The notes beneath the pieces were generated by a model that worked only from the letters and a program-made list of their open reading frames with translations, did not search any database and had not been told where the DNA came from. Made by a program: the position numbers and the translations under genes. A stretch of DNA of 64,000 nucleotides from contig JAZDGT010000033.1 in assembly GCA_043806635.1 (NCBI GenBank), positions 24,336 through 88,335 of the forward strand, given 5' to 3'. The DNA comes from Methanobacteriota archaeon. Lineage in GTDB: Archaea; Thermoplasmatota; E2; DHVEG-1. Below, in pieces: positions 18,624-37,888 of this stretch. Within the stretch, counting starts at the first letter, position 1, and every line of letters starts with the position of its first letter.

Positions 18624-18696
18624 AGCCCCGTGGTGTAGCGGTCAATCATTCGGGATTCTGGATCCCGCGACAGTGGTTCGAATCCACTCGGGGCTA
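18624..18696 (+). tRNA. tRNA-Gln (anticodon CUG), canonical archaeal-type sequence
   Basis: AGCCCCGTGGTGTAGCGG… with anticodon arm CGGGA-tTCTGga-TCCCG, T-arm GGTTCGAATCC, acceptor CGGGGCT, A73. Confidence 0.85.
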
Positions 18697-22813: not shown

Positions 22814-23614
22814 ATGAAGAAACTCTTGATACCCGTCTTCCTTGTTATCCTCTGCTTCGGGGTCCTTGTTCCTACGGGGAACGCTGAGGTCACTATTCTG
22901 ATGGTGAATAGTCATACGATCACGGTCACGACAACCAATACTGGTTTAAACGTTGTCGAAGACTTAACCGTGAAAAATATTTGGACAAAACCTTGTGATA
23001 CGCTCGAGTTCTGGATACAACAAAATGCAGACGAGGTGAGCATCCTTGCAGTGGAAAATAATATCCCGCTCCCGTCGACGATCTCTGGTAATGTGTATTC
23101 CTGCAATCTCACGTTTCTGAATTTATCCCTCGTCAGTGATCAAACCATGACCTTGCGAGTCACCTACACGCTTCCAAAAACCAGTGAGGTCTATCAAAAA
23201 ACTACTTCCTATGATACGACTTCGTTCATCGTCCTCTTCAATAAGAAAGAGCTTTTCCGTAGTGGATCACTCGCAGCCGGTTCCTCACTACAGGTTCTCT
23301 TGTATCAACCTTCTGAGGCACCGGTGAATATGACGTACCTCCTCATCCTTCTTGTTCTGGTTATCCTCCTTATCACGGTCGCTTTACTGTTTCTGGGGAG
23401 ACATCGGAAAAAAACTGTTCGTTCATCAGGAGTGGAATCTGAAGAACTGCTCACTACACAAAAAAACCTTCTTCTTACCGTGTTAAAAGAGGTTGAGAAA
23501 CAACATCGTGCGAAAACCATCTCTGATGAAACCTATACGAAACTAAAAGACGAATATAAACAACAAGCAGTACTTGTGATGAAAAAACTTGATGATCTCG
23601 AGAAAAAACGTTAG
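22814..23614 (+). CDS. Secreted protein with C-terminal TM anchor and cytoplasmic coiled-coil tail
   Basis: Signal peptide, beta-rich ectodomain, TM (LLILLVLVILLITVALLFLG), K/E-rich tail. Confidence 0.5.
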   Translation: MKKLLIPVFLVILCFGVLVPTGNAEVTILMVNSHTITVTTTNTGLNVVEDLTVKNIWTKPCDTLEFWIQQNADEVSILAVENNIPLPSTISGNVYSCNLTFLNLSLVSDQTMTLRVTYTLPKTSEVYQKTTSYDTTSFIVLFNKKELFRSGSLAAGSSLQVLLYQPSEAPVNMTYLLILLVLVILLITVALLFLGRHRKKTVRSSGVESEELLTTQKNLLLTVLKEVEKQHRAKTISDETYTKLKDEYKQQAVLVMKKLDDLEKKR

Positions 23615-25062
23615 AAATCAAAGAGACTCGGTTGCTTCATTTCCGCCTTCTGTTCATGGTTTTCTTCTTTTTTCTCCTGCTCTGATGAACCCACTGTTTC
23701 TAACATGCTCTGAGTCTCATCAACATGTTCACAAAACTCAAGGATTTCTTTCAACTTCGACGCATGCTCAGATCCTAAGAGAAATTTGATTTCGCTCTCA
23801 GTCAGATCAAGTCGTTGTTTCATGATGCAGGCGAAACGGGTATCATGACAGAACACGTTTTTAAACTGAGGAAAAAAGATCTCTTTACTTTTCTTCTTGG
23901 AGTTATGCATATACCGCCCTAGTTTCATCGCAAGAGCATCCCGTACCTCCCGTTGTCCTTTACTTTGTTTCATCTCCTTCATCCATTGAGGGGGAGCATA
24001 TCGGACTGGGCTATACGTGTGGGTTTTCGCTGTAGTGACACCCCCTGTCATTAGATCTGATGCGTACGACCATAACCCATAGTATCGTCGACGGTAGACT
24101 CGACCGAAGAACACATCTGCTTTCGACACCATTTCATACCCGCGCGCCAGGTCAGCAACCATCTGATACTGTCGAGGGAGGTTCTCAGCGATCCAGAGTA
24201 AAAACGTTGTTGGTTCGATGTCTACACCGTCACATACACCCCGGACACTTTTCAGCGTATCACCAGTGAATACATCTCGAACCGCATCAAAAATAAGTTT
24301 ATCCCGATCCCGGTACCCGAGTACCTCCACTGAGCTGATATCTATCTTACCCCGGCCCAGACTCAGAGACTGAAGATCATTGACTGCGGAGCGGACATCA
24401 CCGTGACAACGCTCAGCAATGAGCTGTAACACTCTCGCTTCCACTGTCAGATTCTCCTCCCGACAAATCCGCCTCAACAATTCCACAATCTGACGATCAC
24501 CTACTTGATAAAACGGGATCACCAAACACAGATCCTTAAACCCCTCCCCGCCACCACGAACTAACGCATAATAATCATTCACAATCAAAATAATCGGCTG
24601 ACTCGTCATCCGGATCGTCTCAAGAATCGCTTTCTTCCCACCACGATCACTCAAATCCGTCATCCCGGATGATCTCGCTGATTTCTCAACCCGCTCATAC
24701 AGATTATCAGCCTCATCAAGAATAATCAGCTTCCTACCACCCTGCTGCGAGGAGAGAAACCGCCCCTGCGTATCAAACGTCTCATGGATGGCACCAGATG
24801 TTGCGACTTTCTTAATCATCACCGCATTCCGAGCATCAGAAGCATTCAGTTCAATGGATATCCAACCGAACTCAGAGGCTAACGCAAGCGCACTACTCGT
24901 TTTCCCTGTACCTGGTTTCCCAGAGAGAATCACCGCGCGTTTCTTCGGCACCCCTGAACTCGTCCATCGACGCGCCCACGTTCGCAGGGTAGCAAGCGCC
25001 TGCTCATTCCCTACTACATCGGTAAGCGTTTTTGGTCTGTACTTCTCCGTCCAGTCATCCAT
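23611..25062 (-). CDS. rfcL: Replication factor C large subunit
   Basis: MDDWTEKYRPKTL…VGNE, Walker A GKPGTGKTS, DEAD-like ILDEADN, 483 aa. 4-nt overlap with the upstream convergent ORF. Confidence 0.85.
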   Translation of the reverse strand: MDDWTEKYRPKTLTDVVGNEQALATLRTWARRWTSSGVPKKRAVILSGKPGTGKTSSALALASEFGWISIELNASDARNAVMIKKVATSGAIHETFDTQGRFLSSQQGGRKLIILDEADNLYERVEKSARSSGMTDLSDRGGKKAILETIRMTSQPIILIVNDYYALVRGGGEGFKDLCLVIPFYQVGDRQIVELLRRICREENLTVEARVLQLIAERCHGDVRSAVNDLQSLSLGRGKIDISSVEVLGYRDRDKLIFDAVRDVFTGDTLKSVRGVCDGVDIEPTTFLLWIAENLPRQYQMVADLARGYEMVSKADVFFGRVYRRRYYGLWSYASDLMTGGVTTAKTHTYSPVRYAPPQWMKEMKQSKGQREVRDALAMKLGRYMHNSKKKSKEIFFPQFKNVFCHDTRFACIMKQRLDLTESEIKFLLGSEHASKLKEILEFCEHVDETQSMLETVGSSEQEKKEENHEQKAEMKQPSLFDF

Positions 25063-26483: not shown

Positions 26484-26570
26484 TACCTAAACCACAAATA
26501 AAACATTTTCTTGTTTCTTTTTTTTCATCATAATCTTTTTATTAACCTGGTTATTTCCCCTTCCGTATAT

Positions 26571-26654
26571 GCGGGGATGGCCCAGCCCGGCAAGGCGATG
26601 GATTGCTAATCCATTGGTCTCACGACCTCGGGAGTTCAAATCTCCCTCCCCGCG
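26571..26654 (+). tRNA. tRNA-Ser (anticodon GCU) with long variable arm
   Basis: Acceptor GCGGGGA/TCCCCGC with G73. Anticodon arm ATGGA-ttGCTaa-TCCAT. Variable arm GGTCTCACGACC. T-arm GGGAG-TTCAAAT-CTCCC. Confidence 0.85.
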
Positions 26655-26900
26655 CTAATTATTAACACGGTTATTTAACAGGAGAAAAATACAATATTTA
26701 TTGGTTGATTGGTACTTAAATCCCAACGGAAGTATGCTATTTATTAACATACAGATTTATGAAAGAATATACACAACTCTGAGGACTTTTCCCAACTTTC
26801 CTTATCCATCTACAGACCGACAGATACTATTTTATCAGGGAAATTAATACTTTCATTTATCCCCTATAATGATATTTATAGGATAGGAGATACTATCCCA

Positions 26901-27737
26901 ATGATGTTAAACAACAGACAAAAATGTTTGTATTATTTTTTACGAAAATCTGATTGTTGTTCAAAAATGCAACTTGCAAAAATCTTCTTCCTGATTAGTC
27001 ATGAGAGTAATATCAATGAAAGAGGGAAATTTTATAGTTTTATCCCTTATAAGTTTGGACCATACTCTTTCGAGTTATTCCATGACGTAGAATTGATGGA
27101 GCAAGAAAAAATAGTAGAATCTAATGGAAACAACATTACATTCGTAGGGGACAGTAAAATACCTGTTGAGAGTGCCCCAATCATTGATCAATACTTTGAA
27201 AACTATTTTTTCATAAATGAAAGAAAATTGATAAACATCGTGTATGAAAAATATCCTGATTATACGATTTTTAGTAAAATCAAAAAAAAGAAGGAATATA
27301 TCAGGGATTTAACAGGTGTGTACACGATTGGCTATGAGGGACGGTCGGTTGATGAATTTTTACTGAAAATAATTGATGAAAAAATCCAAATCCTTACTGA
27401 TATTCGGAATAATCCCTGGAGCATGAAATATGGTTATTCAAAACAAAATCTCGAAGTATTTTGTGATAAACTAGGAATCAATTACATGAGTATGCCATCT
27501 CTTGGAATTCCAAGTGCACTGCGGAAAAATTTGAATGAGAAAGAAGCGTACAAAAAACTGTTCACTATGTATCGTACATATCTTGGAAAGAAAGCAATAG
27601 AGATTCAAGATTTAAAACGACTGTCAGAAAAACATAGAATTGCCCTAATGTGTTTTGAGAGGAATCCAGATTATTGTCATCGCGGAGTTCTAGGAAAAGA
27701 ATTAGAAAAATTAGGTGCAGAGGTCGTATTCAATTGA
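26901..27737 (+). CDS. Two-domain protein: unknown N-terminal domain fused to a C-terminal DUF488 domain
   Basis: C-terminal half carries the DUF488 hallmarks YTIGYEGRSVDEF and ALMCFERNPDYCHR. 278 aa. Confidence 0.6.
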   Translation: MMLNNRQKCLYYFLRKSDCCSKMQLAKIFFLISHESNINERGKFYSFIPYKFGPYSFELFHDVELMEQEKIVESNGNNITFVGDSKIPVESAPIIDQYFENYFFINERKLINIVYEKYPDYTIFSKIKKKKEYIRDLTGVYTIGYEGRSVDEFLLKIIDEKIQILTDIRNNPWSMKYGYSKQNLEVFCDKLGINYMSMPSLGIPSALRKNLNEKEAYKKLFTMYRTYLGKKAIEIQDLKRLSEKHRIALMCFERNPDYCHRGVLGKELEKLGAEVVFN

Positions 27738-27757
27738 CATGGCAGAAAAAGAAAGTG

Positions 27758-28507
27758 ACAGTAGTAACAAAAGCATATCCTGAACATAGTAAAAGACATG
27801 GCACAGTAGCATGTACGGCAGGGATAACTGAAGATGGAGAATGGATCCGTCTGTATCCAATTGATATGAGACATTTTATCGGCTTTGATAAGATTTCAAA
27901 ATTTGATATTATCGAAGTGGAATGTTCACCTGATCTGGATAAGCTTAGTAGAAAAGAAAGTCATAAAGTAAGACCTGAATCCATCAAGATAGTCGATGAA
28001 AGTTTGACACGACCGAAAGCTGATTGGAAAAAACGAAATCAAATCGTTTTACCTATGCTTTCGAAATCCATTGAGCAATTACAAGAATCATATGAAAAAA
28101 ACAAAACATCCCTCGGATTGATCAAACCTCGTGAATTGTTCGATTTCGTAAAGACTGAAGACTTACTAATCTACGAAAAAGATAGCTGGTCTTTTACCGT
28201 AAATCTGGATGGTGTACGAATACCGAATGTTTCGAAAATACCGCACATCTTCCAATACCGTTTCAAATGTTCGGGATGCACTGATAGCGAACATGTAATG
28301 CAATGTGAGGATTGGGAGCTCTTTGAATCATATCGTAAGTGGGGAGAACAATATGGTAATACCGACCTTCTTTGGGCAAAACTAAAAGAACGATATTTCG
28401 CATGGATGATAGAGAAAAGAGATCTCTATTTTATTATGGGTACCCATTCTCAATATCCAACATGGTTTATCATTGGAATATATTACCCGCCAAAAAATAG
28501 CAAATAA
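27758..28507 (+). CDS. Hypothetical protein with C-terminal Cys/His cluster, partner of the DUF488 gene
   Basis: The ORF frame is open from 27674 and overlaps the upstream stop. The likeliest start is GTG 27758 or TTG 27734. CSGCTDSEHVMQCEDWE metal-binding-like cluster. Confidence 0.45.
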   Translation, partial: TVVTKAYPEHSKRHGTVACTAGITEDGEWIRLYPIDMRHFIGFDKISKFDIIEVECSPDLDKLSRKESHKVRPESIKIVDESLTRPKADWKKRNQIVLPMLSKSIEQLQESYEKNKTSLGLIKPRELFDFVKTEDLLIYEKDSWSFTVNLDGVRIPNVSKIPHIFQYRFKCSGCTDSEHVMQCEDWELFESYRKWGEQYGNTDLLWAKLKERYFAWMIEKRDLYFIMGTHSQYPTWFIIGIYYPPKNSK

Positions 28508-28514
28508 AAAACCG

Positions 28515-28580
28515 CTCAACAGATATAAAATCAACAAATATGTTAACAAATACGAGTCCGAATCTCCCTTCCCCGCGTAA
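28515..28580 (+). repeat. Cassette-boundary repeat, copy a (65 nt, tRNA-Ser 3' end-like core)
   Basis: ctcaacagatataaaatcaacaaatatgttaacaaatacgagtccgaatctcccttccccgcg. The 3' 27 nt resemble the tRNA-Ser T-arm and acceptor. Confidence 0.6.
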
Positions 28581-28840
28581 TATTCATCAATACGTTAATG
28601 CGCATGAAAAAGATTATATAACACAATAACAGAATTTTCGCTGTTTTGTCCTACAGGCTTTTAACATATATTCCGTAATCCCTCCAGCGGCTTTACTAGG
28701 TCTTTTTTCAGAATAACGCTCTATATATTTTAGGTCAATGATACTTGTTAAAACCTTTTGATTTAATCCTTACCGAGTTGCTTGGTTCTTTCAGACGGAC
28801 AACAAAATGGTTATCCATCGGCTCGCTGTTTAAAGGATTT

Positions 28841-30004
28841 CTATTTCAACGATTTGGTTATCCTTTTTATAGCTTCGTCAATGTTTTCTAAGGATGTTGC
28901 ATACGAAAATCTGAGGTATCCTTCGCCGTATGGGCCAAAGGCAGTTCCAGGGAGCGCTGCGACTCCTGCTTTATAAAGGAGATGATTAGCGCATTCTTGG
29001 GAGTTCATACCTGTTTCTTTGATGTTGGGACAGGTGTAAAAGGCGCCTTTTGGTGAAAGGCAGTGAAAACCGGGGATGGAGTTTAATCCGTTGACGATTG
29101 CATTTCTTTTTTTAGTAAATCGGGTCATCATCTCGGTGATGAATCGTTGATCTCCGGTTAATGCTTCGATGCCTGCCCATTGTGTAAAGGCGGCTGTGCA
29201 GGAGAAAGCGCTTACGAGGAAATCTTGAAGTCGTTCTGCCATTTCGGGTGGGGCTATTATGTAGCCGAGTCGCCAGCCTGTCATCGCGTAGTATTTTGAA
29301 AATCCGTCTAATAAAATGGTTCTTTCTTTTGCTTCATCGCGGGCAGTGGGGGTATAGTGTTTGGTGTCGTCGTATGTCATTTTTGAGTATATTTCATCTG
29401 AGACAATGAAGATATCGTGTTCTTCTGCAAGTTCAGCAATTTCGTCTAGTTCGTTTTTTGTCATGACGGATCCGGTAGGGTTTTGGGGGGAGTTGATGAT
29501 AATGAGTTTTGTTTTTTCTGTTATCCTTTTTTTGATATCATCAGGGTTCATTCGGAACTCGTTTTCTTCTAAAAGCGGTATGGGTATTTGTGTTGCTCCG
29601 AGATATGACGTTACTGATCCGTATGTGGGATAGCCGGGGTCTTGATAGATGACCTCGTCGCTAGGGTTTACGGTGGCGAGCATGGAAAAAAAGATCCCTG
29701 GTTTTAGACCGGGGGTAATCACTACTTGCTCAAGATCGGGTCTGTATCCTCTGGTTTTTTCAATTTCGTCTTGGATCGCTGTTCGTAATTCCAATAACCC
29801 TGCAGGTGGAAGGTAATGTGTTTTTTTCTTTTGAATAGCTTTGATTCCGGCGTCAGCGATGTTTTTTGGGGTTTCTATGTCTGGTTCTCCGATTTCAAAA
29901 TGAAGGATGTTTTTCCCTTGTCGTTCTAGTTCTTGAGCTTTTGCGAGCACTTCAAAGGCTGCTTCTCCGTAGATCCTGTTTGCTCCTTTACTGAGTTGTG
30001 CCAT
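28841..30004 (-). CDS. Class I/II PLP-dependent aminotransferase (AspC family)
   Basis: PLP lysine context DGFSKYYAMTGWRLGY, 387 aa. Confidence 0.85.
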   Translation of the reverse strand: MAQLSKGANRIYGEAAFEVLAKAQELERQGKNILHFEIGEPDIETPKNIADAGIKAIQKKKTHYLPPAGLLELRTAIQDEIEKTRGYRPDLEQVVITPGLKPGIFFSMLATVNPSDEVIYQDPGYPTYGSVTSYLGATQIPIPLLEENEFRMNPDDIKKRITEKTKLIIINSPQNPTGSVMTKNELDEIAELAEEHDIFIVSDEIYSKMTYDDTKHYTPTARDEAKERTILLDGFSKYYAMTGWRLGYIIAPPEMAERLQDFLVSAFSCTAAFTQWAGIEALTGDQRFITEMMTRFTKKRNAIVNGLNSIPGFHCLSPKGAFYTCPNIKETGMNSQECANHLLYKAGVAALPGTAFGPYGEGYLRFSYATSLENIDEAIKRITKSLK

Positions 30005-30018
30005 AGTATCTCCTTTAG

Positions 30019-31842
30019 CTATTTGGTATATTTTTCAAGTCCGAGTTCTTTGATTTTTTCAGGGGTAGGTATGCCGTTGTTATCCCACCCGCGAAGTGTA
30101 TAGTACTCCTGCATACTGTGCTGAAACTCGCCCTCAGGTATAACAATGTTTTTTGCGGGTCCTTTGGTAAAATTATCGTTGAAGAACCGAGGCGGTAAGG
30201 TGTCGGTAGTTGAATCAAGTCCTTCTCTGAGGTTGAATAATCTGACGAGATTCCAGATTCGCTCCCCAGCTTTTAAATAACTTTGAACGGTATGGTCAAA
30301 TCCTGTTGCCAGGTTCCAGAGGGCTACACAGTCCTGTTCGGAAATAGGGGCGAAGTCACAGAGAACCAACGAAAAGAATGCTGCACGTTCGTCTTGTATC
30401 TTTTTTACTAACGCTGCTTTCTTGGTGAAGGAGAACCGTTGGTAATCCGGGTTGTTGAGTTCTGTAGTAACAGTCCATGCTCGTTGATGGCATCCTCCTC
30501 GATCAGATGTTGCATAGGCTAGGCCCATACCGAAGCTTCCGCGTGGATCGTACCCAGGGATTTCTAGTCCTTTCACATGCACGGCTAATTGTTCAGCTTG
30601 TTTACCGAGTTTCTGTGCCGCTGTCCGGACGCCTTCCGCAAGACTTGTGCAGACCCTTGTTTTTTTATAGGCAATATCTTCCATAAGTGTTGCTAACTCT
30701 TTGGTTTTACCCCAACCGATAGAAGTGCCTCCAAGATCTTCACGGGTGATGATGCCTTTTGTATATGCTTCAATAGTAAATCCGAGTACGCCACCAAGGG
30801 AGATGGAATCAAAACCAAGTTCATTACATCGTTTGTTGAGATAGGCGACTTCTTCGATGGTACGAATCCCAAGGTTCGAACCCATGAGCGCAATGGTCTC
30901 GTATTCTGGTCCTACAAGAGTTACTCCTTTGTAGGGCCCAGATTTTATAGAAGATTTATTCCAACACGCGATAATACAGTTAAAACAGGCGCCTCCCTTG
31001 TCAACAATACGGTTCTGCATCGACTCAGCGTTGATGGCTTCACCATGCTCGAAGGTTCCTTCTTGGTAGTTTCTTGTAGGGATAAATCCCCAGTCGTTGA
31101 CCGGTTTCACCAAGTAAGGAGTTCCAAATTTTCTTCGTATGGGAACAAAACCGTTATTCCGGATTTTTTGAAGGACTTCTTGTGCTTTCTCTTGGAATCC
31201 TTCTGCATCATGTACGGGGATTTTGTTGTTTCCGCGGAGCGCTATGGCTTTGAGGTTCTTGGATCCCATGACTGCTCCGGCTCCACCCCTTCCAGCGTGG
31301 CGATGTCCGTCTACGGTGATAGCTGAGAATTTAACAAGGTTTTCTCCTGCGGGCCCGATGAGCGCTGTTTTTACGTTTCCTTCTTGTCTTTGAAGCCATT
31401 CGTGGGTGTCCAAACATTCTTTTCCCCAGATGTCTTTGGCGTCTTTGAACTCGACGGCATCATTGTTGATTGTTATATATAGGGGTTTATCAGCTCGTCC
31501 GGTGAGGCTGATGATATCCCATCCTGCTTTTTTTTGTTCGACGGCAAAGCTTCCGCCGAAATGAGAATCTAGGAATAAACCGGTTTGTGGGGATTTGGTT
31601 ACTATAGTTCCCCGGCCAGAGGTTTGTGCTTTGGTTCCAGTGAGTGGTCCGGTGGTAAGCAGGAGTATGTTTTTTGGTGATAACGGCTCTGTTTTTCTTG
31701 GAAGGTTATCAAAGAGAAGTTTGGCTCCTAGTCCTTTTGCTCCTATGAATTGTTTAGCATCATGGAGATCGGTTTTTTGGGTTGCTATGGTACGGTTCGT
31801 AAGATGTATCGTGAGTATGTTGCCTGTGTATCCCCCAGTCAT
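30019..31842 (-). CDS. aor: Aldehyde:ferredoxin oxidoreductase (tungsten-containing AOR family)
   Basis: N-terminal MTGGYTGNILTIHLT… AOR_N domain, 607 aa, typical AOR length and motifs. Confidence 0.85.
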   Translation of the reverse strand: MTGGYTGNILTIHLTNRTIATQKTDLHDAKQFIGAKGLGAKLLFDNLPRKTEPLSPKNILLLTTGPLTGTKAQTSGRGTIVTKSPQTGLFLDSHFGGSFAVEQKKAGWDIISLTGRADKPLYITINNDAVEFKDAKDIWGKECLDTHEWLQRQEGNVKTALIGPAGENLVKFSAITVDGHRHAGRGGAGAVMGSKNLKAIALRGNNKIPVHDAEGFQEKAQEVLQKIRNNGFVPIRRKFGTPYLVKPVNDWGFIPTRNYQEGTFEHGEAINAESMQNRIVDKGGACFNCIIACWNKSSIKSGPYKGVTLVGPEYETIALMGSNLGIRTIEEVAYLNKRCNELGFDSISLGGVLGFTIEAYTKGIITREDLGGTSIGWGKTKELATLMEDIAYKKTRVCTSLAEGVRTAAQKLGKQAEQLAVHVKGLEIPGYDPRGSFGMGLAYATSDRGGCHQRAWTVTTELNNPDYQRFSFTKKAALVKKIQDERAAFFSLVLCDFAPISEQDCVALWNLATGFDHTVQSYLKAGERIWNLVRLFNLREGLDSTTDTLPPRFFNDNFTKGPAKNIVIPEGEFQHSMQEYYTLRGWDNNGIPTPEKIKELGLEKYTK

Positions 31843-31846
31843 ACGT

Positions 31847-32926
31847 TCACACTTCTTTCATCTCAACACTATTCTTTTTATTCGGTTGTTTCTTTTGTGA
31901 GATGCGATTAATCGTGAGAAGATCTATAAGAAGGGCAAATCCTGTTTGGCGGCGACCTGCACCGGGTCCGACGATAGTAACTGGTCCTAGTTCATCGGTT
32001 AGGTAGGTTAACGCGTTTGTGGCATCGTTTATTCCTGTAAGTGGGTCGCTGAGTGGTAGTTTTTCTGGCCATACTTTGGCTTTCACAGAACCATCGCGTT
32101 GTATCTCAGCGTTGCCGATGAGTTTCCATCGTTTTCCTTCTGTTTTTGCTGCGGCGATATCTTTTGTGGTGATTTCGGCGATGCCTTTTCTTTGGACGTC
32201 GTCCCAGCTGATTTTTTTTCCTAATACGACCGTGGTTAAAATAACTACTTTTCCTAGCGTGTCCCATCCTTCGACGTCTCCGGTGGGGTCTGCTTCTGCG
32301 TATCCTAATTGTTGGGCTTTTTGTAACGCGTCCTCATAGGACATTCCTTCTTCCATGCGAGTGAGAATATAGTTGGTGGTTCCGTTGAGGATGCCTTTGA
32401 ATCCGGTGATGATATTCCCTGCGAGAGTGTAGTGGGCAAGGTTTAAGGCGGGGGTGCCTGCTAGGACAACGCCTTCGAATCCGTAGTGGACATGGTTTGC
32501 CTCAGCTATCTTAAGTAATTCTTTTGCTTGTTTAATGACGGGTCCTTTGTTTGATGATACGACGTGTTTGCCGTGTTGGAGGGCGGTTTTTACGTGTGTT
32601 ATTGCTGGTTCTCCTGTTTTGACGTCGGTGAAGGTAACCTCAATGATGGTATCTGCGTTGGTTTCGGTAATCGTCTTTAGACTATTCATTCCTTTTATTC
32701 CGGTAGGGTATTCATCCAGTTTTTTGTTGTTCTTCACAAGGTTCAGTATTTTGTGTAAGTCAAGGCCGTGTTCGTCATAGACTGATCCTTTTTGGATATC
32801 AGAAATGGCAACGACGGTGTAGTGGAAATCATAGGTTTTCGCCAGCATGTCTTTTTTTTCAAGTAATATTTCGGTGAGTCCTTGTGCAACCGTCCCGTAT
32901 CCGATAAAGGCGATGTGGAATTGCAT
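31847..32926 (-). CDS. hom: Homoserine dehydrogenase
   Basis: N-terminal GYGTVAQG NAD-binding motif. Catalytic-domain motifs GILNGTTNYIL and LGYAEADPTGDVEGWD. Confidence 0.8.
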   Translation of the reverse strand: MQFHIAFIGYGTVAQGLTEILLEKKDMLAKTYDFHYTVVAISDIQKGSVYDEHGLDLHKILNLVKNNKKLDEYPTGIKGMNSLKTITETNADTIIEVTFTDVKTGEPAITHVKTALQHGKHVVSSNKGPVIKQAKELLKIAEANHVHYGFEGVVLAGTPALNLAHYTLAGNIITGFKGILNGTTNYILTRMEEGMSYEDALQKAQQLGYAEADPTGDVEGWDTLGKVVILTTVVLGKKISWDDVQRKGIAEITTKDIAAAKTEGKRWKLIGNAEIQRDGSVKAKVWPEKLPLSDPLTGINDATNALTYLTDELGPVTIVGPGAGRRQTGFALLIDLLTINRISQKKQPNKKNSVEMKEV

Positions 32927-32928
32927 GG

Positions 32929-34248
32929 TTATGTCCTCTGGTGATGAAGATGTGGAGCTGCAACGAACGTTAGTCCTCGCTCTGTAAGTGCGCGAGCGGT
33001 GTTATTGATTGCTTCATGTTTGTCAAGGTAGTTTCTTAGGAGATGAGGCATGAGTTTTTTTTCTTCGATTTCGTTTTTAGGTAGGAAATAGTCGAGGATG
33101 TCGGAGGGGTGTTCTCTTTTGCTGTCTATTTTGATTTCTCCTCCTTCGTGTTTGGCGCTCATATTTTTTACATGTGTTGCGAGTTCGAGGATTTCTTCAC
33201 GTCGGTCATAGGGTTGGACGACGATGCTTTTGTATGTTTCTAAGATATGGTGTTCAAACCGTACGTAGTCTTCTAACCCCAGAGAGTGTCGTATCTCGTT
33301 ACTGAGGTCGATGGTGGTGTTGTTGACTGAGTTTGAGAAGTTAAATCCTACGAGTGATGTAGAGCCGTCTTCTCGTGAGAAGAAGCGGGCGGCCATTAGC
33401 GTCCAGAATATGGCGTAGGGGTTGTCGTTTCCCATGTATACGGAGATTTTGAATTCTATGTTGATTTCGAGTTTGTGGAGGAGGTAGCCTAGGAAGATTG
33501 TTCCTGGGTTGATGTTGAGGACTTGTTTCACTCCGTAGTTGGTGTAGTAGTAGAGGAATTCGTCTACCCATTTGAGGGGGTAGTCATTTGGTTGGCCGAC
33601 TCCTCCGAAGTAGCCGGTTATGGTTTCTGGTCCGCCCAAGTGGACGTTGGAGCCGTCTGTTCCTCTGGTATCGAGGGTTTCACACCAGCTCGCTCCGATG
33701 ATTTGCATGGCTGCGGTCATGGCGAGGAGGTCGTCGTCTTCTTCTTGTTCTTTCATGCAGCGAACGCGGATGAAGCGACCGGGCATGAGTTCTCCGTTTT
33801 TTACTGCTTGTCGGGCTTGGGTCATAAAGAAAGGGAAGTATTGGCAGGCGCTGATTTCTAAGGTAACGGCAAAATCCTCGTTGAATTCCATGTCTTTGAT
33901 TTTATCGCCTAGGATTTTTCTGCGGTAGTCGTTTATGGTGATAAAGGCTTTTTTACCTCGTTGTTCTAGTAGCCATTGGAGATCGTTGTAGTAGGGTGAG
34001 TTTTTTTGTTTTAGTCGTGTCATGAGGTTTTCGATTTTTCCTGCTTCGTTGGCTTTTCGGTTGATTTCTTCAGGGCCGCCGTATTTGTCGATTATTGATA
34101 GGAATTTGTTTATGATTTTGTTGTCTGGGTGTGTTAAAAAAGAGTTTATTTCTTCAAGTCTTTTTTTTTCGATGGCTAGTTTGTTTCGGATATCCGTAGG
34201 CATGTTTTGTTCCTCCCCTTTTTTTATTTGTTTATGTCTGGGAAGCAA
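32929..34248 (-). CDS. Hypothetical conserved protein (439 aa), co-directional and tightly packed with hom, aor and the aminotransferase
   Basis: Stop-to-start spacing of 2 nt to hom. No recognisable motif. Confidence 0.45.
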   Translation of the reverse strand: MLPRHKQIKKGEEQNMPTDIRNKLAIEKKRLEEINSFLTHPDNKIINKFLSIIDKYGGPEEINRKANEAGKIENLMTRLKQKNSPYYNDLQWLLEQRGKKAFITINDYRRKILGDKIKDMEFNEDFAVTLEISACQYFPFFMTQARQAVKNGELMPGRFIRVRCMKEQEEDDDLLAMTAAMQIIGASWCETLDTRGTDGSNVHLGGPETITGYFGGVGQPNDYPLKWVDEFLYYYTNYGVKQVLNINPGTIFLGYLLHKLEINIEFKISVYMGNDNPYAIFWTLMAARFFSREDGSTSLVGFNFSNSVNNTTIDLSNEIRHSLGLEDYVRFEHHILETYKSIVVQPYDRREEILELATHVKNMSAKHEGGEIKIDSKREHPSDILDYFLPKNEIEEKKLMPHLLRNYLDKHEAINNTARALTERGLTFVAAPHLHHQRT

Positions 34249-34600
34249 ATCAGGCAGCGTTATAAATAATGTTTGGTTTTCCTGAAAAGTAGTTTGATTT
34301 TTGTGTCTGCACGTTAGAGTTCTATTTGTTGCTGTTGTTCTATATAAATTGTAAACATATTTTAATTTTTATGGAAATATTTAAATTAAAATGATGGATG
34401 CTTAAAGTAGAATGGGGGAGGAAAAATTTATATTAAAAAAAATGAGTTATTGAGAAAAAGTTTGGTATTAGGAATAGTAACACTGTTTGTTGAAATGAAT
34501 AGTGCATCGACCACAAGCAATGGTACCACTACCTTTGAAGGGTTTGTCAATAAAAATAATTATCTATAAAATTTGAAGTATCAAAAAATGAAAAAACTGC

Positions 34601-34745
34601 TCAACAGGTATAAAAACAAATTTTTTACCAGTAAAACGGAGTCGAAATCCCACTCCCCGCGCTAATTATTAGCACGGTTAGTTAACGGAAGGGAAATACA
34701 ATTTTTTTATAGTAAATTGACGCTCAAATCCCGACGGGATCATCC
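34601..34745 (+). repeat. Cassette-boundary repeat, copy b, fused to a 105-nt direct repeat of the tRNA-Ser 3' end and its downstream flank
   Basis: 34639-34745 is about 75-85% identical to 26631-26735 (ggagt(t)c(g/a)aaatc…ccccgcgctaattatta(g/a)cacggtta(g/t)ttaac…). The left arm 34601-34638 matches copies a, c and d. Confidence 0.6.
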
Positions 34746-35118
34746 GGTCATTTTTTCTCCTGTAGAAAAATTGTAAAAATGTAGTTTTCTTCTATAAAAG
34801 TGATGGAGGGGGCTTTGTCCCCGAAATGTAGCTATTCCCGATGATTTTAGAGGATATACATTTTGATGAGTATTAATTTTTTAGGTAATTTTTTCCAGGA
34901 GAAATCCTCCGAGATTATAACGAATATTTCCCTTTTAATTACCAAAATATGAGTTCAGTGAAAACACATCTGTTGGCCAGGGAAAAAAAGTTTTAAGGAT
35001 AATCCGCATAAGCGAAAGAAATATTATCGATGTTTCCTGCAACAGTTGACGGTTAAGAGGAGATTTGAATCACTGAGGAAATATCTGGAATTGGTTGTGA
35101 TTCTCGCTATGTTTTCAC

Positions 35119-35394
35119 TTAAATGTTTTTTGATCTGAGTTCATCTTGAATATTGCGAGCCCGTATTTTCCATATCACTATTACTATTTTTAAAACAGAT
35201 AAAATAAAAATAACTGTTGCTGCTATCACTATAAAATATTCTCTACGTATAAAGGCTAGGTAGAAAATACAGCTAATAATAACCAAAGTTATGAGAGATA
35301 TTGCTAATGTCGTCTTTTCCCTTATCGTAATCTGAGCTACCTCTTTTGAAGTCGTATCAGGGCTATATTTCAGCATAAAAATATCGAACAACAT
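35119..35394 (-). CDS. Small membrane protein (doubtful)
   Basis: 91-aa hydrophobic ORF, AT-rich region. Confidence 0.25.
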   Translation of the reverse strand: MLFDIFMLKYSPDTTSKEVAQITIREKTTLAISLITLVIISCIFYLAFIRREYFIVIAATVIFILSVLKIVIVIWKIRARNIQDELRSKNI

Positions 35395-35558
35395 CTTTCT
35401 TTGAGGTTATAAAATTTTCTCTTGCCATTCATTGTTCTGTGGTAATTTTTTAGATATTCAAATCAATAGGTTATCAACTTTGTTTGAAAAATCTGAGAAT
35501 AGTAACTTTTATATTACGGGTTAGATTTTCTGTCAAGGGAGCGTTATGAGGAGAAAAA

Positions 35559-36095
35559 ATGAGGCAAGATAAAAAAATACATAAAAGGGATATCGTGGTA
35601 CTTGTTTCAGCTCTCTTCATATTTTGGGTCTTGTTAACATCTGACTTTTCGTATTTTTCATTAATTTTGGGAATATGCGTTTCAATTTCGATTGGTTTGG
35701 TTTCTACGAAGTTTGTAATTACTGATGTAAAAGGTAGACGGAAAACATTCAAGGAATATTTCTTTGCGATTGAACATCTGGTTGGTATAGTTACCACTAC
35801 AATATTCAGGATAATTATTGCGAATGGCCAATTGATATATCAAGCAGTAACGCTGAAGATTTATCCAAAAATTGTAAGGGTTAAGGTTAATTTGAGATCC
35901 GATGTCGAACTGACAATACTCTCTCATTTGATAACACTCACACCCGGAACACTAGTTATCGATATACAAGATGCAGAAGACGGTGGTTCATACTTATATG
36001 TTCATTTTTCGTACTTGAAGGCTAAGCATTTGGGAAAATATATAGAAAATACCATTGGGCAATGGGATAAAATGATAGGAGCGTTATTTAAATGA
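35559..36095 (+). CDS. mrpE: Mrp/Mnh-type cation:proton antiporter subunit E
   Basis: First gene of an overlapping 8-ORF operon. N-terminal 2 TM and size typical of MrpE. Confidence 0.55.
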   Translation: MRQDKKIHKRDIVVLVSALFIFWVLLTSDFSYFSLILGICVSISIGLVSTKFVITDVKGRRKTFKEYFFAIEHLVGIVTTTIFRIIIANGQLIYQAVTLKIYPKIVRVKVNLRSDVELTILSHLITLTPGTLVIDIQDAEDGGSYLYVHFSYLKAKHLGKYIENTIGQWDKMIGALFK

Positions 36096-36343
36096 TGATC
36101 TTCGTGTATGTATTGTTAATCACTGCGATATTATCGTCGTATCGTTTATTTGTTGGACCGACTATACAAGATAGGCTTGTCTCTTTGAGCTGTGTTTCAG
36201 TGATACTTATCATTATTTTAATAATTCTTAGCATTCATTACAATCAAATGTTTTATCTTGATATAGCTATAACATTTCTTTTACTGGATTTTGTCGGCAC
36301 GATAGCATTCACAACGTATCTTGGACGAGAGGAGACAAAATGA
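36092..36343 (+). CDS. mrpF: Mrp antiporter subunit F
   Basis: 83 aa, 3 TM, ATGA overlap with mrpE. Confidence 0.55.
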   Translation: MMIFVYVLLITAILSSYRLFVGPTIQDRLVSLSCVSVILIIILIILSIHYNQMFYLDIAITFLLLDFVGTIAFTTYLGREETK

Positions 36344-36699
36344 ATATTATTTTGGAATTGCTGTCTCTTCTCTTTATATCTATAGGATGCTTTGTGATGT
36401 TATCTGCTGCTCTTGGTTTATATCGCTTTCCCGACATTTACATGCGTTTACACTCAAGTACAAAAGTGAACACTGGCGGTGCAATGACATTACTTTTTGG
36501 ATTAATGCTTAGAACTGGTATAAGCGCTCTGTCAGCAAAGATTTTTATTATAATAGCACTTATATTTATCCTGACTCCTGTTGTTTCTCATGCGATTGCT
36601 CGATCTGCGCATTTACAAAGTAAAACACCGATAATTTCTTTTGAAGCACATCCGAAGAAAAAATATGAGTATCATGATTTCTTTAGGAGAAAACAATGA
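36340..36699 (+). CDS. mrpG: Mrp antiporter subunit G
   Basis: MnhG signature LGLYRFPDIYMRLHSSTKVNTGG. Confidence 0.75.
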   Translation: MNIILELLSLLFISIGCFVMLSAALGLYRFPDIYMRLHSSTKVNTGGAMTLLFGLMLRTGISALSAKIFIIIALIFILTPVVSHAIARSAHLQSKTPIISFEAHPKKKYEYHDFFRRKQ

Positions 36700-36926
36700 T
36701 TGAACAAGTTCTTTTGATTTCCTTGGTAATCTTTTCGATTCTTGTTGTAGTGGAAAAACAATTATTGAGATCAGTAGTATTCCTGGCCTCAAGTACTGTA
36801 CTGCTTGTTGTACTATTGTTTCTTTTACAGGCACCTGATGTTGCGATAACAATGGCTGTGGTTGGTACTGGCGCAACAACCATCCTTTATCTCACAGTGA
36901 TTAAGAAAGTAGGTGGATTAAAATGA
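36696..36926 (+). CDS. Small Mrp membrane subunit (MrpB-N/DUF4040-like)
   Basis: 76 aa, 2-3 TM, overlapping stop/start in the operon. Confidence 0.4.
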   Translation: MIEQVLLISLVIFSILVVVEKQLLRSVVFLASSTVLLVVLLFLLQAPDVAITMAVVGTGATTILYLTVIKKVGGLK

Positions 36927-37192
36927 AAATGGATATAGTGGGGAAGTTTGCGGTGGCTTGCATCCTATCACTTTTTGGAATAATCATTATTTCATCTACG
37001 ATGCTTACATATTCCACCACCTTAACTTCAGAGATATCGGAATATTGTCTAGAAAATTTGTTCCTTACCGGTGCAATAAATGCTGTCTGCGCGATTTTAT
37101 TGGATTTTAGAGCATATGACACTCTAGGGGAGATTTTGATCATATTTGTTACTATTTCTGGGGTTATGCTGCTGGCAGGGAGGCGAAGATGA
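36923..37192 (+). CDS. Small Mrp membrane subunit
   Basis: 89 aa, hydrophobic, in-operon. Confidence 0.4.
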   Translation: MKMDIVGKFAVACILSLFGIIIISSTMLTYSTTLTSEISEYCLENLFLTGAINAVCAILLDFRAYDTLGEILIIFVTISGVMLLAGRRR

Positions 37193-37572: not shown

Positions 37573-37888
37573 TGGATTTAACATAGGGATCATTCTTTTT
37601 TTGATAGGTTTGTATGGTATTATCACCAATAAAAACGTAATTAAAATAATTATGTCAATGGGCATAATGGGAAATGGTGTTGTGTTATTTTTCATCTCAT
37701 TAGGATATGTTGTTGACAGCGCAGCACCAATCCTGACATCGGGAGTTGAAAACATTGTTGATCCATTACCTCAGGCGCTCATGCTTACTATGATTGTAAT
37801 AAATCTGTGCATGACTGCACTAGCTTTAACTATTGTCGTCTGGCTTTATCATGAATTTGGCACCTTAGATTTGGGAGAGATGAGATGA
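37565..37888 (+). CDS. mrpC: Mrp antiporter subunit C (NuoK-like)
   Basis: 107 aa, 3 TM, NuoK/MnhC-like. Confidence 0.6.
   Translation: MINGFNIGIILFLIGLYGIITNKNVIKIIMSMGIMGNGVVLFFISLGYVVDSAAPILTSGVENIVDPLPQALMLTMIVINLCMTALALTIVVWLYHEFGTLDLGEMR

What the first reader, a model, noticed from the sequence alone, without database searches (positions are those of the whole stretch)
26901..28507. First cassette next to tRNA-Ser: a DUF488 fusion protein plus a Cys/His-cluster partner, a candidate two-gene accessory or defence-like system
ORF 26901..27737 joins an unknown N-terminal domain of about 140 aa to a C-terminal DUF488 domain, with hallmarks YTIGYEGRSVDEF…ALMCFERNPDYCHRG. The next ORF is open from 27674 with a likely start at 27734 or 27758. 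It overlaps the stop of the first ORF, so the two are translationally coupled. It encodes a roughly 250-aa protein with no recognisable catalytic motif other than a C-terminal CSGCTDSEHVMQCEDWE metal-binding-like cluster.

The pair sits immediately 3' of a tRNA gene and is bounded by att-like repeats (26655 and 28515-28580). That is the classical address of mobile defence or accessory modules. DUF488 has no established function. Its fusion to an extra domain and its coupling to a conserved partner are worth testing as a functional system.
Basis: partly seen in the sequence, partly recalled or inferred. Interest (0 to 1): 0.6.

Follow-up and report, generated by a model that had tools for sequence, protein, structure and literature searches.

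The report
Mobile DUF488 plus dual-OB gene pair
This is a real, widely conserved, horizontally moving two-gene module (a DUF488 enzyme carrying an antitoxin-type domain, plus a tandem-OB DNA-binding partner); it is already catalogued as the untested phage-defence candidate PDC-M19, so it is a new member of a known candidate family whose mechanism is still unknown.

Summary
ORF A (26901-27737) ends in a DUF488 domain (Pfam E=1.8e-25). ORF B starts at TTG 27734, overlapping A's stop (TTGA).

The pair is not new. Both proteins match the PADLOC models PDC-M19A and PDC-M19B over their full length (E=6e-71 and 2e-57). PDC-M19 is an untested multi-gene phage-defence candidate.

Pairing is strongly conserved. 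In 80 species-level loci found with B, 76 have a DUF488 gene next to it. The pair also occurs on plasmids and in Gordonia prophages, and is almost always lower in GC than its flanks.

- **A's "unknown" N-terminal domain** is a divergent Panacea/DarG-C-like antitoxin-type domain.
- **In relatives**, that domain is replaced by MazE/AbrB, HTH or ParB modules.
- **B** is a confident tandem-OB protein (HIN/RPA/telomere-end-binder-like) with a CCHC knuckle and an invariant DWE motif.

My best reading is a toxin-antitoxin-like defence or addiction module. B would be the nucleic-acid-binding effector, and A its regulator and enzymatic counterpart. That mechanism is inferred, not shown.

The cassette is the first unit of a tRNA-Ser-anchored array of integrase-less cargo cassettes separated by a conserved repeat of about 110 nt. 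That array may be more novel than the pair itself.

The parts
26571..26655 (+). tRNA-Ser(GCT), anchor of the cassette array; its 3' end (26632-26655) is the att core
   Evidence: ARAGORN. In related metagenome contigs the same tRNA sits next to the RFC large-subunit gene and is followed by different cassettes.
26656..26700 (+). Left-end (P'-like) arm of the cassette, TAATTATTAACACGGTTATTTAAC...AAATACAAT
   Evidence: The same sequence recurs right after the att copy at 34662-34705 and after most metagenome copies of the repeat.
26875..26880 (+). TTTATA, an archaeal TATA-box-like element about 23 nt upstream of the ATG; this implies a leaderless transcript (inference)
   Evidence: Read directly from the sequence; not tested.
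26901..27737 (+). Gene A, 278 aa: Panacea-like domain + DEK_C-like helices + active-type DUF488 (PDC-M19A)
   Evidence: PADLOC PDC-M19A E=5.8e-71 over aa 4-271. PHROG 14939 E=5.5e-36. Model pLDDT 93. A 100%-identical NCBI protein (P0121) is annotated from M23, but homologues support the longer start.
26901..27293 (+). N-terminal region of A, aa 1-131: Panacea/SocA/DarG-C-like winged-helix part (about aa 1-85, F-x-P-Y-K-F-G-P-Y-S motif) and DEK_C-like helical part (about aa 86-125)
   Evidence: 11 of 21 family members hit Pfam SocA_Panacea, best E=1.7e-6. The profile hits the DarG DarT-binding domain 7yk3_B at E=0.0034 and DEK_C 1q1v at E=0.009. The profile also finds stand-alone Panacea/YwgA proteins at E about 1e-20.
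27348..27698 (+). DUF488 domain of A, aa 150-266; candidate catalytic set is C251, E253, C259-H260-R261, D151, D167, R169; a conserved low-confidence loop N-P-W-S-M-K-Y-G lies at aa 171-178
   Evidence: Pfam. Invariant columns. Strand-Cys-loop-Arg-helix layout in the model. Weak Foldseek hits to CbiL-type methylases, SsoPTP, Cdc14 and RapZ.
27734..27737 (+). TTGA: start of B overlapping the stop of A; a GAGGT Shine-Dalgarno-like motif lies 8 nt upstream (27721-27725)
   Evidence: Sequence. The same 4-nt overlap occurs in L001, L002 and L087.
27734..28507 (+). Gene B, 257 aa: tandem-OB (DuOB-like) protein (PDC-M19B)
   Evidence: PADLOC PDC-M19B E=2e-57 over aa 4-256. PHROG 25907 E=1.9e-40. Model pLDDT 90.8. 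Foldseek hits to HIN-200, RPA70, Teb1, TEBP-alpha and POT1 at probability 0.9-1.0.
28268..28318 (+). CCHC knuckle (C179, C182, H187, C191) plus the E-D-W-E motif in the second OB of B
   Evidence: Alignments. D193, W194 and E195 are invariant in 78/78; C179 in 75/78; H187 in 76/78.
28498..28584 (+). Right-end repeat of the cassette: conserved arm (28509-28553, CTCAACAGATAT...TGTTAACAAATAC) plus a tRNA-Ser 3'-end-like core (28554-28584)
   Evidence: nhmmer E=3e-20. Alignment with the copies at 34583-34670 and 39858-39945; a fourth copy at 42491-42570 was found by nhmmer. 93 metagenome stretches carry the exact 23-mer.

Best explanation
The pair is a member of the PDC-M19 candidate family: a self-contained, horizontally mobile two-gene module built like a toxin-antitoxin or abortive-infection system.

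Gene B encodes a tandem-OB protein with a Zn knuckle. It most likely binds single-stranded DNA or DNA ends and acts as the effector or sensor.

Gene A comes first, overlaps B by TTGA, and combines two things. One is an antitoxin-type adaptor, a divergent Panacea/DarG-C-like domain. The other is an active DUF488 enzyme, a Cys-dependent phosphoesterase or phosphotransferase of the PTP/rhodanese-phosphatase type.

Proposed logic, by analogy with DarTG (inferred, not shown):
- A holds B in check, both by direct binding through the Panacea-like domain and by DUF488 chemistry on a nucleic-acid-linked phosphate.
- Infection, or loss of the cassette, upsets the balance.
- B then blocks replication of the invader or of the cell.

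In this genome the module is the cargo of the first integrase-less cassette in a tRNA-Ser-anchored array.

My confidence that it belongs to PDC-M19 (DUF488-N3a plus DuOB) is about 0.95. That it is mobile cargo, about 0.9. That it follows TA-like, A-restrains-B logic, about 0.4.
For: **Membership.** Both proteins match the PADLOC models over their full length. Pfam DUF488 and DUF488-N3a both score above their cut-offs. Relatives of B hit DuOB.

**Linkage.**
- 76 of 80 species loci have a DUF488 gene beside B; 71 have it upstream on the same strand.
- Pairwise distances of A and B correlate at r=0.83-0.85 over 52 loci.
- One representative (P0487) has DUF488 and DuOB in a single polypeptide.

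**TA-like anatomy.**
- Gene order and the 4-nt overlap.
- The N-terminus of the DUF488 partner is swapped between Panacea-like (53 loci), MazE/AbrB (PF04014, down to E=5e-12), HTH_59 and ParB_N+HTH_ParB.
- The Panacea-like domain is the fastest-evolving part: 40% mean identity, against 52% for DUF488 and 53% for B.
- It keeps the G-P-x motif that Kurata et al. 2022 report as critical for neutralisation.
- It is weakly but specifically similar to the DarT-binding domain of DarG.

**B as a DNA binder.** Tandem OB folds resembling HIN-200, RPA and telomere-end binders.

**Mobility and defence context.**
- The pair has lower GC than its flanks in nearly all loci.
- It occurs on plasmids, and in Gordonia prophages between the immunity repressor and the integrase.
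- It sits next to an MmeI-type RM gene in L087 and near an NmeDI-like gene in L002.
- Payne et al. chose the family because it is found embedded in BREX, DISARM or type I RM loci, with 174 RefSeq instances.
Against: - No experiment exists for this family, and no paper in the searchable library tests DUF488 or PDC-M19.
- The window's own N-domain does not hit Pfam Panacea at E<=1. The link is transitive, through family members and profiles.
- B has no known toxin fold and no proven toxicity.
- The single-polypeptide DUF488-DuOB protein, and the strict conservation of DUF488 catalytic residues, fit a cooperating enzyme complex at least as well as an antagonistic pair.
- About a quarter of the loci lack any Panacea domain.
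- This locus has no neighbouring defence genes.
- The fold similarity of DUF488 to PTP/RapZ/CbiL is weak: E between 6e-3 and 0.4.
Confidence: 0.45

Rival explanations
1. A and B form a cooperative nucleic-acid-end processing complex rather than an antagonistic pair. B recognises single-stranded DNA or DNA ends, of an invader or of the element itself, and presents them to DUF488. DUF488 then removes, adds or transfers a terminal phosphate-linked group. The Panacea, MazE, HTH or ParB modules only regulate or target the enzyme. As I recall it, this is close to the computational prediction of Burroughs and Aravind 2023 for the RapZ-C/DUF488/DUF4326 clade. That paper is not held in the library; only its title was verified.
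For: - DUF488 and DuOB occur fused in one polypeptide, P0487.
- Catalytic residues of DUF488 are invariant.
- B has invariant polar residues that look like a ligand pocket rather than a plain DNA-binding surface: S19, C27, R39, R73, E75, S76, R101, D193, E195.
- DUF488 occurs with DNA-targeting modules, including ParB-CTPase-HTH fusions shown to bind CTP.
- The related DUF4326 is proposed to process ribose-linked terminal phosphates.
Against: - The N-terminal swaps are specifically among classic antitoxin modules (Panacea, MazE).
- The gene order is antitoxin-like.
- The N-domain evolves faster than its partners.
- No substrate is known.
Confidence: 0.3
2. The pair is a pure addiction or stabilisation module for the cassette (post-segregational killing), with no role against viruses.
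For: It sits in integrase-less cassettes and on plasmids next to integrases. Other cassettes of the same array type carry AbiEii-type TA toxins. It has TA-like anatomy.
Against: - It occupies the lysogeny-expressed slot between repressor and integrase in Gordonia prophages.
- It is found embedded in RM, BREX or DISARM loci.
- From general knowledge, TA modules often do both jobs, so this rival overlaps with the best explanation.
Confidence: 0.15
3. The pair is a housekeeping DNA-repair or replication accessory (an SSB-like protein plus a phosphatase) that merely happens to lie next to a tRNA.
For: B resembles RPA, SSB and RecO-type OB folds.
Against: - Its distribution is patchy and its neighbourhoods vary.
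- GC is lower than the flanks in nearly all of 86 loci.
- It is present on plasmids and phages.
- It is absent from the equivalent tRNA-Ser locus of related genomes.
Confidence: 0.05
4. The pair is a decaying remnant of an integrated element and has no current function.
For: There is no integrase in the cassette, and the att copy is degenerate.
Against: Both ORFs are intact and keep every family-invariant residue. The start-stop overlap and a promoter-like element are preserved.
Confidence: 0.03

Closest known systems
PDC-M19 (PADLOC-DB v2 multi-gene 'phage defence candidate'; Payne et al., bioRxiv 10.1101/2024.01.29.577857)
   Same: Both genes match the two PDC-M19 model sets over their full length, in the same order and on the same strand. 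The family was defined as cassette CAS_00089, FAM_02799>>FAM_02993, with 174 RefSeq instances.
   Different: PDC-M19 is only a guilt-by-embedding candidate and is untested. This copy is archaeal, is not embedded in an RM, BREX or DISARM locus, and lies in a tRNA-linked cassette.
PanA-PanT (Panacea) type II toxin-antitoxin systems (Kurata et al. 2022, PMC8832971)
   Same: The A-type N-domain family hits Pfam SocA_Panacea and keeps the G-P-x signature. It is a two-gene overlapping operon on mobile DNA.
   Different: The Panacea-like domain is N-terminal and fused to an enzyme (DUF488). The window copy itself is below Pfam detection. The partner, a tandem-OB protein, is not a described PanT toxin, and DUF488 is absent from the held supplements of the Panacea and NetFlax papers.
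DarTG (DarG = macrodomain eraser + DarT-binding C-terminal domain)
   Same: Architecture logic: an enzymatic 'eraser-type' domain fused to a partner-binding domain. A's N-domain profile matches the DarG C-terminal domain 7yk3_B at E=0.0034. DarG's dual type II/IV action is described.
   Different: There is no macrodomain and no DarT ADP-ribosyltransferase. The domain order is reversed and the gene order is reversed. It is not a member.
Rhodanese-phosphatase superfamily, RapZ-C/DUF488/DUF4326 clade (Burroughs and Aravind 2023, NAR Genom Bioinform lqad029; content recalled, paper not held)
   Same: The DUF488 model has a Rossmann-like strand-Cys-loop-Arg-helix layout. Its weak structural neighbours are exactly that superfamily's members: PTPs, Cdc14, RapZ and CbiL/diphthine-synthase-like methylases. 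Pfam names the subclade 'active DUF488-N3'.
   Different: No substrate or activity has been demonstrated for any DUF488. The active-site loop is C-x9-R rather than the C-x5-R of PTPs.
HIN-200, RPA70 and telomere-end-binding tandem-OB proteins; Pfam DuOB (PF22557)
   Same: Two consecutive OB folds. A Zn-binding insertion in the second OB recalls RPA70 DBD-C (from general knowledge). 6 of 40 family members hit DuOB.
   Different: TM-scores are low (0.2-0.4). The window protein itself does not hit DuOB. Invariant C27, R39, R73-x-E75-S76 and D-W-E have no counterpart that I can name.
Tandem tRNA-targeted integrative elements leaving partial tRNAs, e.g. tycheposon arrays of Prochlorococcus (Hackl et al., bioRxiv 10.1101/2020.12.28.424599)
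   Same: The cassette is flanked by a tRNA gene and a partial copy of its 3' end. Several units follow each other at the same tRNA and carry niche or defence cargo.
   Different: The host is archaeal. Every unit seen lacks an integrase. The units are short (median 2 kb) and separated by a very conserved arm-core-arm repeat of about 110 nt, which makes the array look more integron-like.

Membership tests
PDC-M19 (PADLOC) | Protein matching a PDC-M19A model | tested here: met
   PDLC04505 E=5.8e-71, aa 4-271 against model positions 2-284 of 294.
PDC-M19 (PADLOC) | Adjacent same-strand protein matching a PDC-M19B model | tested here: met
   PDLC04508 E=2e-57, aa 4-256 against model positions 2-264 of 269. 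The genes overlap by 4 nt.
PDC-M19 (PADLOC) | Anti-phage activity | not testable with these tools
   The source paper itself lists these candidates as untested. No paper mentions PDC-M19.
Pfam DUF488 (PF04343) / DUF488-N3a (PF22751) | Score above the gathering threshold | tested here: met
   90.3 bits against 22.2; 31.4 bits against 27 (marginal for N3a); the inactive-clade model N3i scores 12.7 against 27.
Pfam DUF488 (PF04343) / DUF488-N3a (PF22751) | Conserved putative catalytic residues retained (C...E, C-H-R, D, D-x-R) | tested here: met
   C251, E253, C259, H260, R261, D151, D167 and R169 are invariant in 46 sequences including the window.
Pfam DuOB (PF22557) | HMM match above the gathering threshold | tested here: inconclusive
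   The window protein gives no hit. 6 of 40 close relatives hit at E<=0.01, and only P0007 passes the threshold (29.2 bits against 27).
Pfam DuOB (PF22557) | Two OB folds in one chain | tested here: met
   Model with pLDDT 90.8. Foldseek hits to tandem-OB proteins (HIN-200, RPA70, Teb1, TEBP-alpha) at probability 0.9-1.0.
Panacea (PanA) antitoxins | SocA_Panacea PF13274 domain with the G-P-x signature | tested here: inconclusive
   The window copy gives no Pfam hit at E<=1. 11 of 21 family members hit, best E=1.7e-6. The family profile finds PF13274-annotated proteins at E about 1e-20. G52-P53 are invariant.
Panacea (PanA) antitoxins | Neutralises a toxic partner by direct binding | not testable with these tools
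   No complex prediction or experiment was available.
Type II toxin-antitoxin module (generic) | Two small overlapping genes, the first carrying an antitoxin or DNA-binding module; mobile and patchy distribution | tested here: met
   TTGA overlap. Panacea, MazE, HTH and ParB swaps. GC deviation from flanks and plasmid or phage copies.
Type II toxin-antitoxin module (generic) | Second protein is toxic; first protein is labile | not testable with these tools
   None.
DarTG | DarT ADP-ribosyltransferase and DarG macrodomain | tested here: not met
   No macro or DarT domain appears in either protein. Only the DarG C-terminal domain is weakly similar: E=0.09 with NCBIfam, E=0.0034 with the profile against 7yk3_B.
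PTP / rhodanese-phosphatase superfamily | Rossmann-like fold with Cys at the end of a strand, followed by a phosphate-binding loop and an Arg at a helix N-terminus | tested here: inconclusive
   Strand 246-251 ends in C251, and helix 260-270 starts at H260-R261. Foldseek hits to SsoPTP, Cdc14, PTPMT1, RapZ and CbiL are weak (E 6e-3 to 0.4, probability up to 0.99). The loop is 9 residues rather than 5.
tRNA-targeted integrative element | Direct repeat of the tRNA 3' end at the far boundary | tested here: met
   26632-26663 against 28554-28584, 28 of 33 matches.
tRNA-targeted integrative element | Integrase encoded in the element | tested here: not met
   The 1.9-kb cassette holds only A and B. 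No integrase Pfam hit was found among the larger ORFs between 32.9 and 43.8 kb. A crude tyrosine-recombinase HMM finds none in the window.
Integron gene cassette | attC hairpin sites and an adjacent IntI integrase | not tested
   The repeat contains short palindromes (ATGATATCAT or ATGGTACCAT; TTTGTTAACAAA), but I did no structural or IntI test.

The most novel reading that the evidence does not exclude
DUF488-DuOB is a new class of enzyme-antitoxin/OB-toxin immune module. A tandem-OB protein would poison replication by clamping ssDNA or DNA ends. A PTP-like DUF488 enzyme, recruited by interchangeable antitoxin adaptors (Panacea, MazE, HTH, ParB), would reverse or prevent this through chemistry on a nucleic-acid-linked phosphate. 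That would give DUF488 its first function. In this archaeal lineage the module also travels as one cargo of a previously undescribed array of integrase-less gene cassettes anchored at tRNA-Ser and delimited by a repeat of about 110 nt.
Probability: 0.25. Interest if true: 0.75.

Novelty: new member of a known kind. Interest (0 to 1): 0.45.

Why it matters
DUF488 is a large, widespread family with no experimentally known activity. Its obligate partnership with a tandem-OB protein gives a tractable handle on that activity. The partner family has at least 2,347 clusters at 50% identity, and 76 of 80 loci are paired.

The analysis here adds a concrete, testable architecture hypothesis: the DUF488 partner carries interchangeable antitoxin modules, which suggests DarTG-like logic. 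It also identifies easy experimental entry points, namely bacterial plasmid copies and Gordonia prophage gp42/gp43.

Even so, the pair itself is already listed as a candidate, so the discovery value of this one locus is moderate.

The surrounding cassette array may be the more original lead for archaeal genome plasticity.

Tried and rejected
- **Literature.** Full-text searches for DUF488, PDC-M19 and DuOB found no functional study. The key computational paper, Burroughs and Aravind 2023, is not held, so its content is cited from memory only.
- **Sequence search of the PDB.** It finds no solved DUF488 or DuOB relative.
- **NCBIfam.** It gives nothing useful beyond a weak DarG hit.
- **Gordonia gp44.** I suspected that this 'immunity repressor' was the A homologue. 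It is not: it is an Xre-type HTH protein. The DUF488 partner there is the convergent gp42, mis-annotated as 'HipA toxin'.
- **tRNA or integrase address.** The idea that this is a family trait was rejected. Only 13 of 86 loci have a tRNA within 6 kb, and few have integrase-like ORFs, although the integrase HMM was crude.
- **Bacterial sigma-70 promoter and terminator scan.** It is uninformative for an archaeon.
- **Exact-sequence contig look-ups.** P0121 and P0123 are not on record.
- **Right-end repeat.** It has no exact match in viral contigs.
- **Held supplements.** Those of the Panacea and NetFlax papers contain no DUF488 entry. Two defence-screen papers have no held supplements.
Full report
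**1. What is there**

The window is archaeal. It carries an RFC large-subunit gene at 23611-25062 and an aldehyde:ferredoxin oxidoreductase gene at 30019-31842. The identical DUF488 protein in NCBI (P0121) comes from a 'Methanobacteriota archaeon' MAG, and the closest relatives are Thermoplasmata.

tRNA-Ser(GCT) lies at 26571-26655. Two overlapping genes follow 245 nt downstream.

Gene A (26901-27737, 278 aa) ends in a DUF488 domain. Pfam PF04343 scores E=1.8e-25 over aa 150-266. It also passes the curated 'active DUF488-N3' subclade model (31.4 bits against a cut-off of 27) but not the 'inactive' one.

Gene B starts at TTG 27734, not at 27674 or 27758. All homologues begin M/L-TW(E/Q)KK, and the start overlaps A's TGA as TTGA. 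The same 4-nt overlap is seen in distant relatives. A GAGGT motif lies 8 nt upstream of the B start, and a TTTATA box lies about 23 nt before A's ATG. Both features are read from the sequence; their function is inferred.

The pair has GC 0.34, against 0.44 in the flanks.

**2. It is a real and conserved pair, and it is already catalogued**

Both proteins match the PADLOC models PDC-M19A (E=5.8e-71) and PDC-M19B (E=2e-57) end to end. They also match two PHROG families of unknown function.

PDC systems are candidates that Payne et al. derived from genes embedded in BREX, DISARM or type I RM loci, and the authors state they are untested. PDC-M19 is cassette CAS_00089 (FAM_02799>>FAM_02993), with 174 RefSeq instances.

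I tested the linkage independently. A profile of B recovered 80 species-representative loci, mostly Thermoplasmata, Methanothrix, Methanomicrobiales, Asgard and DPANN archaea, plus some Chloroflexota, Planctomycetota and Firmicutes. The breakdown is as follows:

| Arrangement | Loci |
|---|---|
| DUF488 ORF adjacent to B, all arrangements | 76 of 80 |
| Same fused architecture as here, upstream, same strand | 53 |
| DUF488 without that N-domain, upstream | 18 |
| DUF488 downstream | 3 |
| DUF488 on the opposite strand | 2 |
| Exceptions lying at contig ends | 2 of the 4 |

Further evidence for linkage:
- Pairwise distances of A and B correlate at r=0.83-0.85.
- The B family is large: 2,347 clusters at 50% identity with E<=1e-3.
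- One representative, P0487, carries DUF488 and B in one polypeptide. This could be a real fusion or a lost stop codon.
- Copies also sit on plasmids: Sulfolobus pSOG2, Burkholderia pYS1, Rhizobium, Streptomyces and cyanobacteria.
- Seven records of Gordonia phages carry the pair. In Nymphadora, gp43 (B-like) lies between the immunity repressor and the integrase. The convergent gp42, annotated 'HipA toxin', is in fact a DUF488 protein at E=3e-26.

**3. What the parts are**

*B.* The AlphaFold model is confident (pLDDT 90.8) and shows two OB folds joined by helices. The best PDB matches are tandem-OB DNA binders: HIN-200 domains of p204, p205 and IFI16, then RPA70, Teb1, TEBP-alpha and POT1. 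Probabilities are 0.9-1.0 and TM-scores are low. Some relatives reach Pfam DuOB, the 'dual OB' model.

It is conserved in archaea but lost in some bacteria. The truly invariant residues over 78 diverse homologues are P16, C27, G30, R39, P42, R73, E75, S76, R101, D193, W194, E195 and G236, with S19 in 77 of 78. That set looks like a specific pocket. This reading is an inference.

*A, C-terminal part.* The model has pLDDT 93. A strand ends in C251, and a helix starts at C259-H260-R261. A conserved but low-confidence loop, N-P-W-S-M-K-Y-G, lies nearby. Structural neighbours are weak, but they are the members of the rhodanese-phosphatase superfamily: SsoPTP, Cdc14, PTPMT1, RapZ and CbiL-type methylases. 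This agrees with my recollection of Burroughs and Aravind 2023. Only the title of that paper could be verified.

*A, N-terminal part.*
- 11 of 21 family members hit Pfam SocA_Panacea, best E=1.7e-6.
- The family profile hits the DarT-binding C-terminal domain of DarG (7yk3_B) at E=0.0034.
- For aa 82-123 it hits the DEK C-terminal domain at E=0.009.
- It retrieves stand-alone Panacea, 'YwgA' and 'phage-associated' proteins at E about 1e-20.
- The invariant G-P-(Y/F) corresponds to the G-P-V signature that Kurata et al. found critical for toxin neutralisation.

*Relatives without this domain.* The DUF488 partner of B instead carries MazE/AbrB (PF04014, down to E=5.4e-12), HTH_59, or ParB_N+HTH_ParB. 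Archaeal ParB-DUF488-HTH fusions were recently shown to bind CTP.

The Panacea-like domain evolves fastest: 40% mean pairwise identity, against 52% for DUF488 and 53% for B.

**4. How it most likely works**

*Shown:*
- The pair is an obligately linked, co-inherited, horizontally mobile module.
- B is a tandem-OB protein.
- A is an active-type DUF488 with an antitoxin-type adaptor.

*Inferred:*
- The anatomy is that of a type II/IV toxin-antitoxin or abortive-infection module. The regulator or antidote gene comes first and overlaps the effector gene. Interchangeable Panacea, MazE or HTH heads sit on a constant neutralising body, and the head diverges faster.
- By analogy with DarG (an eraser enzyme plus a toxin-binding domain), A would restrain B by binding it and by DUF488 chemistry on a nucleic-acid-linked phosphate.
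- B would act on ssDNA or DNA ends.
- I put about 0.4 on this logic.

*Main rival (about 0.3):* a cooperative end-processing complex in which B targets and DUF488 acts. The single-chain fusion and the strictly conserved catalytic residues favour this.

*Other rivals:* a pure addiction role is a sub-variant of the best explanation. Housekeeping or pseudogene readings are unlikely, given the GC deviation in nearly all of 86 loci, the variable neighbourhoods and the intact invariant residues.

**5. Genomic setting**

The stretch 28554-28584 copies the tRNA 3' end at 26632-26663 with 28 of 33 matches.

It is also part of a longer conserved unit:
- an arm, CTCAACAGATAT...TGTTAACAAATAC;
- the tRNA-like core;
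- a downstream arm, TAAATATTTAnCACGGTTA...

This unit recurs at 34583-34670, 39858-39945 and 42491-42570.

The segments between the copies carry unrelated cargo:

| Segment | Cargo |
|---|---|
| 26656-28497 | The A-B pair |
| 28585-34582 | Aminotransferase, AOR, homoserine dehydrogenase, a 439-aa protein of unknown function |
| 34671-39857 | An Mrp/Mnh antiporter operon |
| 39946-42490 | A glycosyltransferase |
| Just beyond the last repeat | CorA |

No integrase was detected in the array.

An exact 23-mer of the repeat occurs in 93 metagenome stretches, mostly lake sediment. Contigs carry up to five co-oriented copies. These delimit 61 cassettes with a median length of about 2 kb and 100 protein clusters among 152 ORFs. 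Wherever tRNA-Ser(GCT) is present, it sits at the upstream end in the same orientation.

In six of these contigs the tRNA is preceded by a homologue of the window's RFC gene (63-74% nucleotide identity), yet the cassettes that follow differ.

Cargo includes transporters, proteases, flavodoxins and AbiEii toxins.

So the A-B pair is one cargo of an integrase-less cassette array at a conserved tRNA-Ser hotspot. The closest described parallel I could document is tandem tRNA-targeted integration leaving partial tRNAs, as in tycheposon islands. The short, uniform, integrase-less units look more integron-like.

**6. Verdict**

This is a new archaeal member of the known, untested candidate family PDC-M19.

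What this analysis adds:
- the identification of the N-domain;
- the adaptor-swapping pattern and the TA-like, DarTG-like hypothesis that follows from it;
- the invariant residue sets;
- the mis-annotated phage copies;
- the cassette-array context.

Interest is moderate, at 0.45.

Noticed in passing
window 26571-44000 (repeats at 28498-28584, 34583-34670, 39858-39945, 42491-42570); loci L088-L180: tRNA-Ser(GCT) anchors an array of integrase-less gene cassettes separated by a conserved arm/tRNA-3'-core/arm repeat of about 110 nt. An exact 23-mer of the repeat occurs in 93 metagenome stretches, with up to 5 co-oriented copies per contig. The copies delimit 61 cassettes (median about 2 kb) with very diverse cargo: Mrp antiporter, transporters, proteases, AbiEii. 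The chromosomal anchor (RFC-L next to tRNA-Ser) is conserved, but the cassettes differ between genomes. The repeat holds palindromes that stay palindromic through paired changes (ATGATATCAT versus ATGGTACCAT). No recombinase was found.
   Followed up: partly
L004 (Gordonia phage Nymphadora NC_031061) 4980-5834 (+) and 5825-6277 (-): gp43, a 'hypothetical protein', is a DuOB/B homologue (hmmsearch E=2e-41). The convergent gp42, annotated 'HipA toxin', is really a DUF488 protein (E=3e-26). Both lie between the immunity repressor gp44 and the integrase gp39, which in actinobacteriophages is typically where prophage-encoded defence genes sit (from general knowledge). The same arrangement is present in all seven matching phage records.
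   Followed up: partly
P0487 (409 aa; representative library): This single polypeptide has DUF488 at aa 14-131 and a DuOB/B domain at aa 152-402. It is either a Rosetta-stone fusion or a lost stop codon between overlapping genes.
   Followed up: partly
window 26901-26969: The identical NCBI protein (P0121, 256 aa) is annotated from Met23. Homologue alignments and the conserved M-L-N-x-R-Q-K N-terminus support the 278-aa start at 26901, so the public annotation probably truncates the Panacea-like domain.
   Followed up: yes
PADLOC model PDLC03184 (Specificity_I), positions 432-550; protein P0277: The Panacea-like N-domain of A matches the C-terminal end of a type I RM specificity-subunit model (E=8e-10). 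A homologue is annotated as a type I S subunit. This suggests that some HsdS proteins carry this adaptor domain.
   Followed up: no
L077 3439-5066 and 6245-7584: This Methanothrix contig carries two tandem copies of the A-B pair. The B genes appear interrupted or truncated.
   Followed up: no
L061 1506-2585 and L068 6675-7850 (Promethearchaeota): In these Asgard loci the DuOB gene is followed by a ParB_N + HTH_ParB + DUF488 fusion. This is the architecture recently reported to bind CTP, and it links the ParB-CTPase switch to the DUF488-DuOB system.
   Followed up: partly
window 11000-17000: A second strongly low-GC stretch (0.27-0.37, against about 0.43) begins next to tRNA-Val (11074-11147), with tRNA-Gln genes at 10281-10355 and 18624-18696. 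It may be another island.
   Followed up: no
window 26539-26556 versus 26659-26676: The sequence just upstream of tRNA-Ser (TTATTAACCTGGTTATTT, probably its promoter region) resembles the left arm found after the tRNA and after each repeat (TTATTAACACGGTTATTT). The arms of the cassette repeat may therefore double as promoter-like elements.
   Followed up: no
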